A stretch of DNA of 64,000 nt from Phallusia mammillata (Eukaryota). Made by a program: the position numbers. The number at the start of each line of letters is the position of its first letter. Position 1 is the first letter of the stretch. Location: NCBI GenBank assembly GCA_965637545.1, contig OZ281498.1, positions 4,402,001 through 4,466,000 on the forward strand. Reading direction: 5' to 3'. Positions 48,001 through 57,000 of this stretch are shown here, one piece after another.

Positions 48001-51000
48001 GTTTGAGACATCTTGCACCAATAAACAGGAATCGTCACTTTGGATTGTGCGCCATATCAGCGTGAAACGTGGGGATTTTTGCAAGACAATGATGGATTGC
48101 ATTTTCTCATAAAAAATACATTCCTAGCCAAAGCATATTCGTAAAAAATCACACAATTTATGTGTTTTTCCGTATACCTGCTGTATTAATTTGGGCACAA
48201 AATGGCGTCCACGGGGCTCTACCGCTAGACCTACCATACGTACCTCTTTGGAGGACATTTCCTCCTTTCTAACGAAAAACAAGTTGGCCTACAAGGACAA
48301 TAAAAAATACCCAAATGTCATCGTTTTGAATTTTCTGTATTTACTAAATACGAAATTATTGTGTCTTTAACATCGGCCAAAGAGTGCGAGTTGTGGTCAT
48401 TGTTGATAGAAATTCACAATTTATAGTAAGTTAAACTTCATCCAAATTGGACTATAATAATTGACTGCGTGAAATTCGTGAAATATAGTGTGCCTTTATT
48501 TTCTTTGGGCACGAAAGTAAGTATTTAGGCTATATTCTTTGCCGGGAATGTGCCCTCCTTTTTGGTTGTGAAAATATGGTAGGCCTATCTACCGCGTAAC
48601 AATGGGTTGGACTACTTGTACTTGTGTTTTACATGTACTCTGGTTTGTGAGTATGATGTGCTCCGGAGTTGCAACAAGGACAAATAAAAGTGATTCACGC
48701 CTAATGATTGGTGATATCCTTCAGGTGTAAGAAGCATTCTTCGATAAAATCACCTTATTATTTGCCAGGCAGCAGTGGCGGAACCAGGAGGGGTAGAGGG
48801 CGATCCACCCACCCATAGGGTCGATTCCCGGGGTGGCAGGGGTGGCAGGGGTGGCAGCCTCCCCACTAAAAATCTCTGGTGTGGCAGCCCTTGTAAAATA
48901 GCTATGCTGCCACCCCAGAAATTGCCTGGCCGTATTTATATTCGTGCATTACAGATATGCGTTTCTTTCATTCACATGCCCTCTTTCGAATGGTCGGTAT
49001 ATTTTGAGCATGTGCAAAGCAAGCTATGTGAAATCCTTAACCCATTTTGCGCTACTCGTTTCAGTGATTTTCGCCAAGTTTGCTTCTCAAAAGCAAGCCT
49101 GAACAAGACTTTTGACATAACGATTGCAATTTTCACGTTTTTGTGTATTATGGATGTTAATTGGTAGTTGGGGATTATATTGTTACGTAAGTGTTCCGTT
49201 TTCATGTGTGGAAAATGGAATTGTAGTGACCACTCATGTACCTAAATTTCGTGTGGGAACTGCAATGCCGATTCCATAGTTTTGCAAAAAATTGAAACGT
49301 TTGCGTTATGTGACCTTTTAAACCACACTACTTCTCACGGATTATTATTAACGCTACCCAGCACGAGATACACTTTTGCTGCCAGTAACCAGTATGCTGC
49401 TGTGAGTACATTACCAACATATTGTGACATTACAACTCCACAACTAGACGGGCGGTTTGTGACGTGACTTTCATAGGTGTTACATCCAAGTTAACCAATA
49501 TTGCGTACATAGTAATGTGCATGTTTATTCCCTTCCAATAACCGCGAACACCATCTACAAACCCTAACGTGTACCCCAGTGTGTTTTGATCACGTAAGGA
49601 ACCACTTGAACAAATTTCGCCACCCCACAAAAGAAAATTTATGCTAAAAAACGACGCCTATGCACCCACCCCCTCTGAGCATGCTGGCGACATTGCAGAT
49701 TTAAAGAAGACTTAATTAAATCCGACTTCTAGTCGACGAATTTTTTGATATCTATGGGCCAACGTTTGGCCAGACGGAATATGGAAGAAAAACAAACCGG
49801 TTTGTTGACTGTTCGCAGTTGTACGTTGATGAGGCTATTGCAATAAAGCAGTTTTATACCGGTCACGTCTAAAACTGCGGGCCCACTTGGATCACTTGGC
49901 CCGCTTGGCCCAGCACTTTATGCAATTGAAAAACTGCGGGCCCACTATATCCAGTGCTTCATGCTTGTCGCGTCTCTTGCAAGTATAAAAACTGCGGGCC
50001 CACAATATCCATTGCTTGGCCCGTCTCTCGTAGGGAAAAACGGGCCAAGTGCTGGGCCAAGCGGGCCAAGTGAGCCAAGCGGGCCCGCAGTTTTAGACGT
50101 GACCCGTTTTATACCATTCGAGACAGGCAGACAGCTAACTGACTGGCAACCTACTTACTACTCATTTTCGCTTTGTAACCAATTACCAACGGTCATAGCT
50201 GCATGATAAGTTCTAGCTTTGTTTGTAAACCGTTTCGTTACTTCTTTGCAAAACGTGTTTATAATATATGCAATGTACGTGTTCGTTGTCAGCCTGTGTG
50301 TTTTAGGAGGTTTCAGGAATAAAACGTTGTTATGAATATGATTATGTGGTGTATCATTTATTGGAATGTGCTATCTAGTATTTGTTTGGCATACAACTGC
50401 AGTTTAAAACTACAAAAAGATGAATATTATTGCACCAATGATGCTGAACAAGCAAACTGCCTTGAATTCCTTGCCCACCAACAGCATTTAAAATCTAACA
50501 CAAAAGCGAATGGTATTTCATCATCCTCTTGGTTTATACTTTGCTACTTTGCTGTTTCAAGTGAATTTGCTACAAGCCAGTGCAGAATACAACTTCCTGC
50601 TGGACCTGTAAAATGTACTACAGATAATAGTACTCCCAGCTCAATTAAGAGAAACTGTACAACTGTTCTAATGTACTTTTCTAAGAATGCAATATTTGAA
50701 GTAAAGAATGATGTAGATAAAACTGTATATAGTAAGTTTTAAGTTTTTTTTGGATTTGCCTAATTTTAGTGCAATTAGTGTGTAGTGCATTACAATTTTT
50801 ATTTATCCTAGGCACATTTAGGACAGTTTTTCTTAAACTTTTTCTTCACTCCTACCTTCCTATGTATAAAAATAACAACAATAGCCGAGGCTAACCCACT
50901 GCCACAAGTAATGGTAGTCAATATTTAAAAACAACTGAAGTATGAGTGGGTTCCAGTAAAAAAAGACTGGTGGTAATAGGTATAAACAATATAGTTAAAT

Positions 51001-54000: not shown

Positions 54001-57000
54001 AAATTCATGACTAATTTTTTTCAGTCCATCTGCGTGGAGTGGTGTGACAATTGCACTATTGGTGGTTGGTTGTATTGGTATTGTCCTTGGCCTTTTGTTC
54101 TGCACACATAGAGTCAAGAAACAGCTTAAATACTTTAAACGCGCCAATGACATAGACGAAAGTGACAGTGTCATCAAACATTTGGTAAGTTTCTCAACAA
54201 CAAAATTTGGGCAGTTATGTATCCTTTACACAGGATTTGTTCAGGACAAAGTCATTTCATCTCCTGATGAGTTTGGAGTCCATAATATTTCAGAACCTTT
54301 AGATGAAGTGGAGTGACTTGCTGGGATAAAAATACGATCAGTGTTAAAATAGTTTACGCAACCAATCAGGTGCTCTTTTAAAAAGGTTTATGCCCTTTTC
54401 ATGTGTTTTACCTATCTGCAGTTCTTTTCAGTCCATTGGTTTCAAAACATTCTTGCCATTGAGTGATTGATTCTTTCCTCAATTCACAAGAGATGTCGTT
54501 TACCACATTTCCCCAGTACTAAGTATTACCTGTTCGTCAATGACGTCATAGCATTTCCTAGTACTGTGCTGCGCCAGGCGCTGGAAACTTGTATACCTAC
54601 AGTAATCCGTTTCGTGTGCTTAGGATTGTTTGTGTTTAAAGCGGTGCCACGATGTTTTTTGTCCTGATTTACCATGGTGTTTTTTATTACTTCGTACAAA
54701 AACTTTCATTTTTAACAAAAAGGGCACATGCAAACAAATAAGTACAAACGTTTTTCACTGAATTAAATTAGACACTGAAATTTCGTGTTTAAGTAAACAA
54801 GTCAAATTGCTCGGTTCACCTAGTTCAGTGGTTCCCAAACTTTTTTCTTTTAAGGCGCATTTTAGAAAAAACAAAAATTATTTGGCACACTTCGAACATT
54901 TGAATAAAAAATATATTGACAAAGGCACTAACTATGAGGTCATAAAGCCGCTATACAGGTCACTCTCATAGTTAAATAGCCTAGTTGAACATCTCAGAGA
55001 CGTGGAGCATGTTGGCCTAGTGGTCTAAGCACCTGGTACTACTACTCTACTTGATTGATTTTAATTTCAATATTTTTTGCGGCACACCTAATGACATCTC
55101 GCGGCACACTGGTGCATAGTTTGGGAACCACTGACCTACTTTGTGTGGTCCATTTATGTTAAATACGGCTGGTAACCAAACGATACAGAAATAGTTTTAC
55201 GTCTGTTGGGACAGAATTCAACGGCTAAAAAGGAGCGTAAAAAAGCTTTTTTTGTCAGTAAGGGACACAATAAAGTACCACTTTTGGTCAAGATTATATT
55301 TCAAAAAACTGGAAAACATAGGCCCTTTTGTTAAGCCGTTTAACTTCGACTGTGTTTTGTTATGCGTTTCAGTATAAACAAAGTTTCATTGATCCCTATT
55401 GTCCCTTGTTATACTACATTCGACTTATTGTGCATCCCCATAAAAGCACACAAGAACAACATAAACAACAACAGTTTTTTGATTTATCTTTTGCCTGTAG
55501 TCACGCGTCAGTTGCCCTCGACGGGTGATCTTGTGGGATGTGTTTTTCGCGATCGCCGATTTCTTCCATTAATTTCAGTCGGGAGATTCAGAGAAGGTGA
55601 CAGCTGATCAATTCTGAGGCAACAAACACAGATTTATGTCAAGCAGAAGTAACCAACCTTGACAATTTCAAGCGTGCGGTTTGCGATTAGGGTTTGGTCC
55701 CCCGAAAATCCCGGGATTTAAAGCTTAAAAGATTTTTTTGAATCCCCATCCTGGGATTATTTTTGTTGAAATACCGCGATTAGAACCTAGCTTATATTAC
55801 TTAATGGGGATGCGTGTTTGTTCAATTGAAGAAAACTTTATATTGTGGCAGCTGCGGCATACAGTTAAACTTCAAGTTGCGCGGTAAACTGAGGAGATAA
55901 AAAACGATGGTTGCATTGCGGTGTCTACTACCATTGCATTAAACCGCTTGTTGGTTCGTGCACCCGACCTGCGCTGTTCGTGTTCTATATGTTTCTACAT
56001 TCGCATATTTCCAACCTTAGGGTTTTCACGACCGTTTCCTTATCCTCTGTCACTGCAATGTAGTGTTTTTGTACTAAAGTAGCCTACCTACTATATTATG
56101 CTATGTTCCGTTTCTTTATGCGCAGAAAATAAATTTATACAATGCAAATTATACATTGGTTTGATACTTTATGAAGAAAACTATAATACAAGTCATTTTC
56201 TTACCTTTCGGAAAGTACTTGGATCTGCTGGACAAGTTGAAACACTGTATCATGCATGCGAGCTTGAGTTTTTAAATACGCACGGCATGAGCATCCTCCA
56301 GGTATTGAACTGAGCGTGGTAGCCTAAATATGTTTTGTGTAAAGTGTGTAAGCTAAGGAGCCGTAAAAAAAAGATTATTTCCTTGAAATCTAAAATAGCA
56401 CTCTTTGGTGGTTTCTAAGGTCTGGTGCGAGCCGCAAAATAAGTAGTTGGGAGCCGCGTTTGAGAATCACTGCGTTAGAGCCTCGTGGAGCCATTTGTGT
56501 CCATAACCAGCGGGTATAAGGAAAAACACATATATTGTCTGATTTGTACAAACATGGTGAGCTTTGACGCAAACTTTGTTCGGCAAATTGAATGAAACTT
56601 TTGGGTCCTAACAATTTGGCTGATCAAATATCGCATTAAAGCCCTCCAGTTTGACAATATAGCATGTGTTTTTCCCCAAACCCGCTGTGTTACTTTGGAC
56701 ACAAAATGGCTCTATGGCGTAACAATTGAATGGACAACTTGTGTTTTATATTGATTTTAGGGTAGTGTAAACTTACGGTTCCCGTTATCGAATTGCTTTT
56801 GCTATTGCCTGGGTATCGGGCAAACACTGTGACGTTGTAGGTGGTTTCAGGAACGAGCTCTTCAAGCCTACCACAATCACTGATTAAATATTGAGTTAAC
56901 GCAACCATGCACATGCTACTTACAATAAAAAGCTGTTTATGACGCCTTGCATTGTCAGTGGTACTGAACCAGGCGAGGAGTATGTTACAACATAACTAGA

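What the first reader, a model, noticed from the sequence alone, without database searches (positions are those of the whole stretch)
50332..54302. Tandem pair of orphan Cys-patterned type-I membrane proteins
Seen: two head-to-tail genes about 485 bp apart with the same four-exon layout (phases 1,2,0; TM exon 160 nt in both). They share an ectodomain pattern YNCS..C..C...(L/M)C(Y/F)F.V...F...QC.I.L.AGPV.C.......(R/S)NCT.VL, then (E/D)KC...(V/M)ADR..A...PFSN, a TM helix and a short tail, yet are otherwise highly diverged. I recognise no known domain. Inference: members of an undescribed, fast-evolving cell-surface receptor/ligand family. Divergent tandem surface proteins of this kind are candidates for immune or allorecognition roles, but nothing here shows function.
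Basis: partly seen in the sequence, partly recalled or inferred. Interest (0 to 1): 0.65.

Follow-up and report, generated by a model that had tools for sequence, protein, structure and literature searches.

The report
Tandem sea-squirt membrane glycoprotein genes
Two neighbouring sea-squirt genes encode related single-pass membrane glycoproteins of a small family so far found only in named ascidians, whose outer domain matches no described domain or solved structure and whose function is unknown.

Summary
Two head-to-tail four-exon genes lie at 50332-52344 and 52829-54316 on the + strand, 484 nt apart, with intron phases 1,2,0 and a 160-nt transmembrane exon in each. Their first exons are paralogous: 32% identity, E 9e-14.

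They are not strict orphans. A scan of 1.84 billion protein representatives found 10 related clusters at E<=0.001. The four that carry names are all ascidian: Phallusia mammillata, Ciona intestinalis, C. savignyi and Clavelina lepadiformis. The Phallusia record is almost identical to the window and uses exactly these splice junctions, but it fuses the two genes.

The family has no Pfam match and no PDB sequence match. A confident AlphaFold model of the Clavelina ectodomain (pLDDT 85.5, pTM 0.81) has no Foldseek neighbour at E<=0.001. A weak language-model lead to mannose-6-phosphate-receptor-type domains was not borne out.

Gene 2 is the conserved copy and gene 1 a very divergent duplicate. 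Nothing supports an immune or allorecognition role.

Verdict: real, unnamed and lineage-restricted. Such families are common in tunicates, so interest is moderate to low.

The parts
50332..50731 (+). Gene 1 exon 1: leader peptide plus most of the ectodomain (7 family-conserved Cys). It ends in phase 1 at a GTAAGT donor.
   Evidence: Foreign-only family profile E 6.1e-11. 132 of 134 residues match public protein P0009.
51800..51926 (+). Gene 1 exon 2 (127 nt): end of the ectodomain, with EKC, VADR and PFSN, an NWT sequon and one extra Cys.
   Evidence: Matches P0009 residues 134-176.
51998..52157 (+). Gene 1 exon 3 (160 nt): transmembrane helix and the basic start of the tail.
   Evidence: (Kyte-Doolittle 19-residue mean 2.73). 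Matches P0009 residues 177-229.
52261..52344 (+). Gene 1 exon 4: Ser/Glu-rich tail end and the TGA stop. It is my model only, because the public fused record skips it.
   Evidence: Canonical AG acceptor, phase 0. It has no support from P0009.
52418..52448 (+). Two ATTAAA strings (52418-52423 and 52443-52448), possible poly(A) signals of gene 1. There is no + strand AATAAA between the genes.
   Evidence: Pattern match only.
52829..53246 (+). Gene 2 exon 1: leader peptide plus most of the ectodomain (7 conserved Cys). It ends in phase 1 at a GTAAGT donor.
   Evidence: Foreign-only profile E 8.4e-44. All 9 foreign homologues hit here better than on gene 1.
52923..52924 (+). AG inside gene 2 exon 1. 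The public fused Phallusia model uses it as an acceptor, joining it in frame to gene 1 exon 3.
   Evidence: P0009 residue 230 starts at 52925. Sequence read.
53373..53502 (+). Gene 2 exon 2 (130 nt): the 8th conserved Cys (DKC), MADRYL, PFSN and an NSS sequon.
54025..54184 (+). Gene 2 exon 3 (160 nt): transmembrane helix, basic juxtamembrane stretch and acidic cluster.
   Evidence: (Kyte-Doolittle 19-residue mean 2.87).
54245..54316 (+). Gene 2 exon 4: acidic tail end and the TGA stop.
   Evidence: P0009 residues 434-456; aligns with the Clavelina tail.

Best explanation
These are two separate, intact, tandemly duplicated genes of an ascidian, most likely Phallusia mammillata. They belong to a small family so far named only in ascidians. 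Each encodes a protein of about 256-259 residues with four parts:
- a cleavable leader;
- an N-glycosylated ectodomain of about 170 residues;
- one transmembrane helix;
- a cytoplasmic tail of about 50 residues that is basic, then acidic and Ser-rich, with no enzyme domain.

The ectodomain has 8 conserved cysteines, presumably forming four disulfides, and is predicted to be a compact alpha/beta domain of 8 strands and 4 helices.

Gene 2 is the conservative copy and the counterpart of Ciona LOC100185600-type genes. Gene 1 is probably a duplicate made on the Phallusia side of the family tree. It has diverged very fast but keeps the cysteine scaffold.

Shown: the gene structure, the paralogy, family membership, the named taxa, the lack of any known-domain match, and the membrane topology features.

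Inferred: the ectodomain is a disulfide-locked binding module displayed on the cell surface (or on the lumenal face of a compartment that exchanges with it), and the tail passes on nothing by itself but recruits sorting or adaptor proteins. On this reading the proteins act as non-enzymatic receptors, co-receptors or adhesion and recognition molecules.

The ligand and the tissue are unknown.
For: Gene structure and paralogy.

Family:
- 10 clusters at E<=0.001 among 1,835,955,588 representatives; 7 at <=1e-10 and 2 at <=1e-30.
- Names come: Clavelina lepadiformis LOC143449413 (282 aa), Ciona intestinalis LOC100185600 isoform X3 (341 aa), C. savignyi H2YCB4 (241 aa) and Phallusia mammillata A0A6F9DI1 (456 aa, fused).
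- Invariant in 11 of 11 sequences: 7 Cys plus A, W, 2 F and G. The 8th Cys, in exon 2, is present in the 3 full-length homologues and in both window genes.

Junctions:
- P0009 maps onto the window exactly at my exon ends.
- All 6 exon-1-only fragments carry G or S followed by K or R at the homologous exon-1 end. That is what reading through a phase-1 GTAAG-type donor gives (inference).

Topology: leader and TM hydrophobicity, 4 sequons per gene in the ectodomain exons, and NC[ST] at the 7th Cys in 7 of 11 sequences.

Fold: AlphaFold2 of the Clavelina ectodomain with a 12-row alignment gives pLDDT 85.5 and pTM 0.81, with the five models at 75.1-85.5. The full-length model gives 78.5 and 0.59.

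Asymmetry:
- 9 of 9 foreign homologues score higher on gene 2; 5 of the 9 also hit gene 1 at E<=0.01.
- Gene 1 is 32% identical to gene 2 but 21-27% to all the others.
- In the best tree {gene 1, gene 2, P0010} lie on one side of a branch, support 71/93.6.
Against: - No expression, localisation or binding data were available.
- The only public record for this locus fuses the two genes. The two-gene reading therefore rests on gene 2's own ATG and leader, on single-domain homologues elsewhere, and on topology.
- Gene 1 exon 4 has no outside support.
- The tree is poorly resolved: 0 of 8 inner branches are starred. Gene 1's long branch makes its placement unsure, and holding gene 1 and gene 2 together as a pair is neither shown nor rejected (p-AU 0.453).
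- The structure model is of the Clavelina homologue, from a shallow alignment, and I could not inspect its coordinates or disulfide pairing.
- The tail contains no canonical YxxPhi or [DE]xxxL[LI] motif by eye, so no trafficking route can be named.
Confidence: 0.6

Rival explanations
1. The two units are one gene encoding a two-domain protein, as in the public Phallusia record, which joins gene 1 exon 3 to an AG inside gene 2 exon 1.
For: - P0009 (456 aa) is exactly that fusion, in frame.
- There is no + strand AATAAA in the 484-nt gap, only two ATTAAA strings. Read-through transcription is therefore plausible.
Against: - The fusion drops gene 2's ATG, its leader and the first conserved Cys. 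It also places the second Cys-rich, sequon-bearing domain after a TM helix, on the cytoplasmic side.
- All 9 foreign homologues have a single domain, and those with an N-terminus start with their own hydrophobic leader just before the first Cys.
- Gene 1 has its own in-frame fourth exon with a canonical acceptor and a stop.
- The transcriptome whose naming style P0009 follows was built by consensus in peptide space from short reads (passages). That method can chimerise neighbouring paralogues (inference).
Confidence: 0.1
2. They are distant members of the mannose-6-phosphate-receptor-homology (MRH / ATG27 / CD-MPR) kind: lumenal sugar-binding sorting receptors cycling between the Golgi, endosomes and the surface.
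For: - Both ESM Atlas feature searches put clusters carrying CIMR, ATG27 or Man-6-P_recep among the nearest: scores 0.85-0.75 for gene 2 exon 1 and 0.78-0.77 for the C. savignyi protein.
- The overall build resembles CD-MPR (my recall): a single disulfide-bonded lumenal domain of about 150-170 residues, a TM helix and a short acidic tail.
Against: - The Atlas scores are below 0.9, which the tool itself calls a lead only. Shared features were 111-152 of 256, below the 170 typical of true family hits, and the Pfam families sit on 14-44% of members in the top rows.
- Pfam found no CIMR, Man-6-P_recep, ATG27 or PRKCSH match at E<=10, either in the 6 window exon peptides or in 10 public family proteins.
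- No MRH structure appears in the listed Foldseek PDB hits for either model.
- The model has 4 helices among its 8 strands, whereas MRH domains are essentially all-beta after one N-terminal helix (recalled).
Confidence: 0.07
3. Gene 1 is a decaying duplicate with no function of its own, and its long branch reflects relaxed constraint.
For: - End branch of 6.09 changes per column against a median of 0.72.
- It has lost the LPLW motif and the F before the 7th Cys, which nearly all the others keep.
- Both amino-acid differences between the window and P0009 fall in gene 1 exon 1.
Against: - The reading frame is open over four exons with canonical splice sites.
- All 8 family cysteines, AGPV.C, ADR and PFSN are retained.
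- Its exons 1-3 are part of the public, probably RNA-derived, model.
Confidence: 0.1
4. One reading: a polymorphic immune, gamete or allorecognition receptor pair.
For: The proteins have a surface-type architecture, are lineage-restricted, are tandemly duplicated, and include one very fast-evolving copy.
Against: - There are only two copies in the window.
- Gene 2 is identical over 227 residues between the window and the public record, and gene 1 differs at 2 of 229.
- There is no Ig, sushi, EGF, lectin or other domain typical of known ascidian recognition genes.
- No expression data were available.
Confidence: 0.07

Closest known systems
Uncharacterised ascidian proteins: Ciona intestinalis LOC100185600, Ciona savignyi H2YCB4, Clavelina lepadiformis LOC143449413, Phallusia mammillata A0A6F9DI1
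   Same: True homologues, with phmmer E values from 2.5e-77 to 1.5e-13 to gene 2 exon 1. They share the same 7+1 cysteine scaffold, the LPLWV..C.F and GPV.C motifs, ADRYL in the second exon region, a TM helix and a short tail.
   Different: None has a described function or a family name. The Phallusia record fuses the two window genes. The Ciona isoform carries an unrelated N-terminal extension with a weak RING-like string. Gene 1 of the window is far more divergent than any of them.
Cation-dependent mannose-6-phosphate receptor / ATG27 (MRH-domain type-I receptors)
   Same: What it may work like: one disulfide-bonded lumenal domain, one TM helix and a short acidic tail. There is also a weak language-model proximity. 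The architecture comparison is from my recall.
   Different: There is no Pfam match, no PDB sequence match and no Foldseek match. The predicted secondary structure is mixed alpha/beta. It is not a member by any test run here.
Botryllus allorecognition-locus membrane proteins (fester, uncle fester) - recalled, not fetched
   Different: As I recall, those carry sushi-type domains and are highly polymorphic and alternatively spliced. Here there is no such domain and almost no difference between the two Phallusia-type sequences available.

Membership tests
Unnamed ascidian family (Ciona LOC100185600-like) | Significant sequence similarity of the ectodomain to the other members | tested here: met
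   A profile of the 9 foreign sequences gives gene 2 exon 1 E 8.4e-44 and gene 1 exon 1 E 6.1e-11 among 1669 window ORFs. phmmer hits are.
Unnamed ascidian family (Ciona LOC100185600-like) | Seven invariant Cys in the first coding exon plus an eighth in the second | tested here: met
   The seven are invariant in 11 of 11 sequences, both window genes included. The eighth is present in both window exon-2 peptides and in the 3 full-length homologues.
Unnamed ascidian family (Ciona LOC100185600-like) | Phase-1 intron at the same place after the seventh-Cys region | tested here: met
   Both window genes have it. All 6 exon-1-only fragments continue with G or S then K or R, as a read-through GTAAG-type donor would give. 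This is an inference from protein letters, since no foreign DNA was on hand.
Unnamed ascidian family (Ciona LOC100185600-like) | Single TM helix and a short tail after the ectodomain | tested here: met
   and the alignment.
MRH domain receptors (CIMR PF00878, Man-6-P_recep PF02157, ATG27 PF09451) | Match to one of the family profiles | tested here: not met
   There was no such Pfam hit at E<=10 for the 6 window exon peptides. The 9 public proteins (E<=10) and P0014 (E<=1) gave none either.
MRH domain receptors (CIMR PF00878, Man-6-P_recep PF02157, ATG27 PF09451) | Flattened beta-barrel fold superposable on solved MRH domains | tested here: not met
   Foldseek against the PDB gave 0 hits at E<=0.001, and no MRH entry appears among the listed hits for either model.
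MRH domain receptors (CIMR PF00878, Man-6-P_recep PF02157, ATG27 PF09451) | Conserved Gln/Arg/Glu/Tyr sugar-binding residues (recalled) | not tested
   No alignment to an MRH domain could be made, and no MRH sequence was fetched.
Known extracellular domain families in Pfam in general | Any curated profile match over the ectodomain | tested here: not met
   only sub-threshold matches over the TM region or chance hits (best E 0.0075, below the cut-off).

The most novel reading that the evidence does not exclude
These genes belong to a tunicate-born receptor family with an extracellular fold not yet seen in solved structures. After duplication, one copy (gene 1) was driven into very rapid change by a recognition conflict (gamete, self/non-self or pathogen). 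The conserved copy (gene 2) keeps the ancestral role, and the two may work as a heterodimer.
Probability: 0.1. Interest if true: 0.65.

Novelty: new variant of a known kind. Interest (0 to 1): 0.35.

Why it matters
If the model is right, this is a compact four-disulfide alpha/beta ectodomain with no relative among solved structures. [quoted passage not shown] That makes it a candidate for a lineage-born surface recognition module, and a clean case of asymmetric divergence after tandem duplication.

Against this, clade-restricted unannotated families are common in tunicates. One comparative study reports 60,568 orthogroups over 39 species and 145 found only in ascidiids (PMC13746493, passages read). 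Without expression or binding data this is one more uncharacterised family, not an answer to an open question.

A practical point: the public Phallusia protein for this locus is probably a chimera of two genes.

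Tried and rejected
- Known domains. Pfam scans of the 6 window exon peptides, the 11 members of A1 and 9 public proteins gave nothing over the ectodomain.
- PDB sequences. The single-sequence and profile searches each returned 0 hits at E<=10.
- Fold searches.
  - The full-length and the ectodomain models against the PDB, and the ectodomain model against BFVD, each gave 0 hits at E<=0.001.
  - The best E values were 0.13, 0.089 and 0.059, with TM-scores of 0.29 or below.
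  - Weak hits to CYTH/triphosphate-tunnel enzymes, Mediator Med18/20 and the TRPML1 lumenal domain recur. I reject them as same-class topology noise: probability 0.2 or less, rmsd 13-28 A.
- ESM Atlas. It gave an MRH/ATG27 lead and a cnidarian 252-aa cluster at 0.83. Both are below the tool's own threshold, and the cnidarian cluster could not be fetched for testing.
- Names and taxa of the other clusters.
  - The search for homologous proteins named only 4 clusters.
  - P0010, P0015, P0016 and P0018 come from unnamed records, which I did not trace. P0011 and P0017 got no source line.
- Complex prediction. There is no result either way.
- Literature. Searches for the locus and accession names and for 'tunicate-specific' + 'transmembrane protein' + 'cysteine-rich' + 'Ciona' found 0 papers.
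- Supplements. Those of PMC7237864, which might hold expression values for this transcript, were closed.
- Other scans.
  - The window has no tRNA or Rfam match.
  - The two genes share no DNA-level repeat.
  - The bacterial promoter scan is meaningless for this eukaryote and I ignore it.
- Not done.
All searches with window sequence were exon by exon, and full-length statements rest on public proteins.
Family size per genome, presence in stolidobranchs, thaliaceans, appendicularians or non-tunicates, and dN/dS all stayed unchecked.

Full report
WHAT IS THERE

The window is AT-rich eukaryotic DNA: 33-46% G+C in 2-kb steps, with no N. On the + strand between 50332 and 54316 lie two head-to-tail genes with the same four-exon plan (sequence, exon table).
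- Gene 1: 50332-50731, 51800-51926, 51998-52157, 52261-52344.
- Gene 2: 52829-53246, 53373-53502, 54025-54184, 54245-54316.

All six introns are GT-AG. Five of the six donors read GTAAGT and one reads GTAAAT. Intron phases are 1, 2, 0 in both genes, and the third exon is 160 nt in both. The exon lengths sum to 771 and 780 nt, that is 256 and 259 codons before the stop. I only summed the lengths.

The gap between gene 1's stop and gene 2's ATG is 484 nt. It holds two ATTAAA strings (52418, 52443) and no + strand AATAAA. TATA-like strings lie 72 nt upstream of the gene 1 ATG (50260-50269) and 35 nt upstream of the gene 2 ATG (TATATAAG, 52794-52801). I read these. They are pattern matches only, in AT-rich DNA.

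IS THE LIKENESS REAL?

Yes.
- The exon-1 peptides align at 42 of 131 identities, E 9e-14.
- The exon-2 peptides find each other in the window at E about 0.01.
- The TM exons and last exons are not significantly similar in sequence (E about 6). They share length, position and character.
- TBLASTN with the eight exon peptides found no third copy in the 64 kb. A family HMM run over 1669 stop-to-stop ORFs found none either.

54302 is a TAG reached from an alternative AG at 54232-54233. The public Phallusia protein and the alignment of the tail with the Clavelina homologue (EF..H..EP.E.V shared) favour the acceptor at 54243-54244 and the stop at 54314-54316.

RELATIVES

HMMER read all 1.84 billion protein representatives with gene 2's exon-1 peptide as query. 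It found 10 clusters at E<=0.001, of which 7 were at <=1e-10 and 2 at <=1e-30. Four carry names.
- P0009 is Phallusia mammillata A0A6F9DI1, 'Uncharacterized protein LOC100181657', 456 aa.
- P0013 is Ciona intestinalis LOC100185600 isoform X3, 341 aa.
- P0014 is Ciona savignyi H2YCB4, 241 aa.
- P0012 is Clavelina lepadiformis LOC143449413, 282 aa.

The other six (149-199 aa) are exon-1-sized fragments from records that are unnamed or gave no source line. I did not trace them. The tool that lists cluster members was switched off.

P0009 maps back onto the window at 132 of 134 residues in gene 1 exon 1. Elsewhere it is identical, apart from the codons split by introns. I therefore take the window for P. 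mammillata or a very close relative. It is not human.

P0009 uses exactly my junctions for gene 1 exons 1-3 and for gene 2 exons 1-4. However, it joins gene 1 exon 3 (ending at 52157) in frame to an AG inside gene 2 exon 1 (exon starting at 52925), skipping gene 1 exon 4 and gene 2's start.

Its name follows the scheme of the de novo P. mammillata embryonic transcriptome. [quoted passage not shown] That P0009 comes from that deposit is my inference. If it does, the junctions have RNA support from the stages between egg and larva.

ONE GENE OR TWO?

I read the locus as two genes, for four reasons.
- The fusion removes gene 2's ATG, its leader and the first conserved cysteine. It also places a cysteine- and sequon-rich domain behind a TM helix, where it would face the cytoplasm.
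- All nine foreign homologues have one domain. Those with an N-terminus start with their own hydrophobic leader.
- Gene 1 has its own in-frame last exon.
- Each gene is preceded by a TATA-like string.

The missing AATAAA leaves room for some read-through transcription.

THE PROTEIN

Each gene encodes the following parts, in order.
- A hydrophobic leader.
- An ectodomain, mostly in exon 1, with 7 cysteines invariant in 11 of 11 aligned sequences. Also invariant are A, W, two F and G, within the motifs LPLWV..C.F and GPV.C.
- An eighth cysteine and the ADR(Y)L and (P)FS motifs in exon 2.
- One strongly hydrophobic 19-residue stretch in the 160-nt exon, with Kyte-Doolittle means of 2.73 and 2.87.
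- A tail of about 50 residues that starts basic and turns acidic and Ser-rich.

Each gene has four N-x-S/T sequons in its ectodomain exons. NC[ST] at the seventh cysteine is present in 7 of 11 sequences. Gene 1 has one extra ectodomain cysteine in exon 2.

All six exon-1-only fragments run on past the homologous exon end with G or S followed by K or R. This is what a read-through phase-1 GTAAG-type donor gives, so the intron position looks conserved. That is an inference from protein letters.

KNOWN DOMAINS AND FOLD

Nothing matched at the sequence level.
- Pfam gives nothing over the ectodomain for the window exons or for the public homologues.
- PDB sequence searches with a single sequence and with a profile give 0 hits at E<=10.

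The ESM Atlas feature search placed clusters partly annotated CIMR, ATG27 or Man-6-P_recep nearest, at scores of 0.75-0.85. The tool itself calls anything under 0.9 a lead only.

I tested that lead by structure. AlphaFold2 of the full Clavelina protein with a 12-row family alignment gave pLDDT 78.5 and pTM 0.59. The ectodomain alone gave pLDDT 85.5 and pTM 0.81, with the five models at 75.1-85.5. Its secondary-structure order is strand, 17-residue helix, strand, short helix, four strands, two helices, two strands.

Foldseek found no neighbour at E<=0.001.
- In the PDB the best E values were 0.13 and 0.089.
- In the viral BFVD set the best E was 0.059.
- No MRH-domain structure is among the listed hits.
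- Weak CYTH-type, Med18/20 and TRPML1 hits recur, but with TM-scores of 0.29 or below and large rmsd. I treat them as noise.

The MRH lead is thus not supported. The fold has no detectable relative among solved structures. AlphaFold DB was not on hand, so 'new fold' is not shown.

The model is of the Clavelina homologue. The window's exon-1 and exon-2 peptides entered only as alignment rows.

THE TWO COPIES ARE UNEQUAL

- All 9 foreign homologues score higher on gene 2 than on gene 1. Five of the nine also hit gene 1 at E<=0.01.
- Over the exon-1 ectodomain, gene 2 is 52% identical to P0010 and 33-38% to the Ciona and Clavelina proteins.
- Gene 1 is 32% identical to gene 2 and only 21-27% to everything else.
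- In the maximum-likelihood tree gene 1's end branch is 6.09 changes per column, against a median of 0.72 and 0.22 for gene 2.
- {gene 1, gene 2, P0010} lie on one side of a branch with support 71/93.6, which is not a starred branch.
- The pair gene 1 + gene 2 is neither shown nor rejected (p-AU 0.453).

The simplest reading is a duplication on the Phallusia side of the family, followed by very fast change in gene 1. Gene 1 still keeps the open frame, the canonical splice sites and every scaffold cysteine. With this tree that reading is probable, not proven.

MECHANISM

I commit to non-enzymatic single-pass surface glycoproteins. The disulfide-locked ectodomain would be a binding module, and the short charged tail would recruit adaptors or sorting factors. 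That makes them receptors, co-receptors or adhesion and recognition molecules.

What is shown is the architecture. The function is inferred from the architecture alone. I found no canonical tyrosine or dileucine sorting motif by eye.

I wanted to test whether the two ectodomains bind each other. The complex-prediction job could not be queued in 12 hand-ins, so there is no result.

It has no support. There are only two copies. Gene 2 is identical over 227 residues between the two Phallusia-type sequences available, and gene 1 differs at 2 of 229. No immune-type domain is present.

NOVELTY AND INTEREST

The genes are already in public databases as 'uncharacterized'. The family has no Pfam entry. 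My three literature searches found no paper mentioning the locus names, the accessions or a matching description. Subscription journals and supplements are not covered by those searches.

Clade-restricted unannotated families are common in tunicates (PMC13746493, passages read). I therefore rate this a real but fairly ordinary finding, with a structurally interesting domain: a new variant of a known kind, interest 0.35.

Noticed in passing
window 52157 / 52923-52925: The public Phallusia mammillata protein A0A6F9DI1 (P0009) is probably a chimera. It splices gene 1 exon 3 in frame onto an AG inside gene 2 exon 1, dropping gene 1's last exon and gene 2's start.
   Followed up: yes
window 49851-50114: A 68-nt inverted repeat (arms 49851-49918 and 50047-50114, 91% complementary) contains a 9-nt GGGCCAAGC tandem and 31-nt direct repeats. 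It looks MITE-like and ends about 220 nt upstream of the gene 1 ATG.
   Followed up: partly
window 56690-63965, minus strand: A large multi-exon gene runs off the window end. It has a VWA exon (63690-63965, E 1.2e-7), three EGF or calcium-binding EGF exons (62758-62982, 62531-62797, 61500-61736) and several fibronectin type III exons. This is a matrix-type VWA-EGF-FN3 protein.
   Followed up: partly
window 46270-46992, plus strand: A 240-codon open frame matches the NDUFB8 (complex I ASHI subunit) profile at E 2.6e-30, apparently in a single exon, 3.3 kb upstream of gene 1.
   Followed up: partly
window 9639-10025 and 13849-14664, minus strand: Exons of a rhodopsin-type GPCR (7tm_1 E 8.6e-6 and 7.3e-8). 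The second is preceded by a long Ser/Thr/Asn-rich N-terminal region.
   Followed up: no
window 28851-29587, plus strand: Open frames encode a leader-like start and a Gly-rich GFGGN(I/V)G repeat, followed by a Cys-rich stretch. Pfam finds no match.
   Followed up: no
window 47470-47520: A GGTTCGAACCCC string resembles a tRNA B box (as I recall it), which might mark a tRNA-derived SINE. ARAGORN finds no tRNA in the window.
   Followed up: no
window 52810-52875: A short out-of-frame upstream ATG (52810) lies 19 nt before gene 2's ATG and overlaps it. It would matter only if transcription starts upstream of the TATA-like string at 52794-52801 (read).
   Followed up: no
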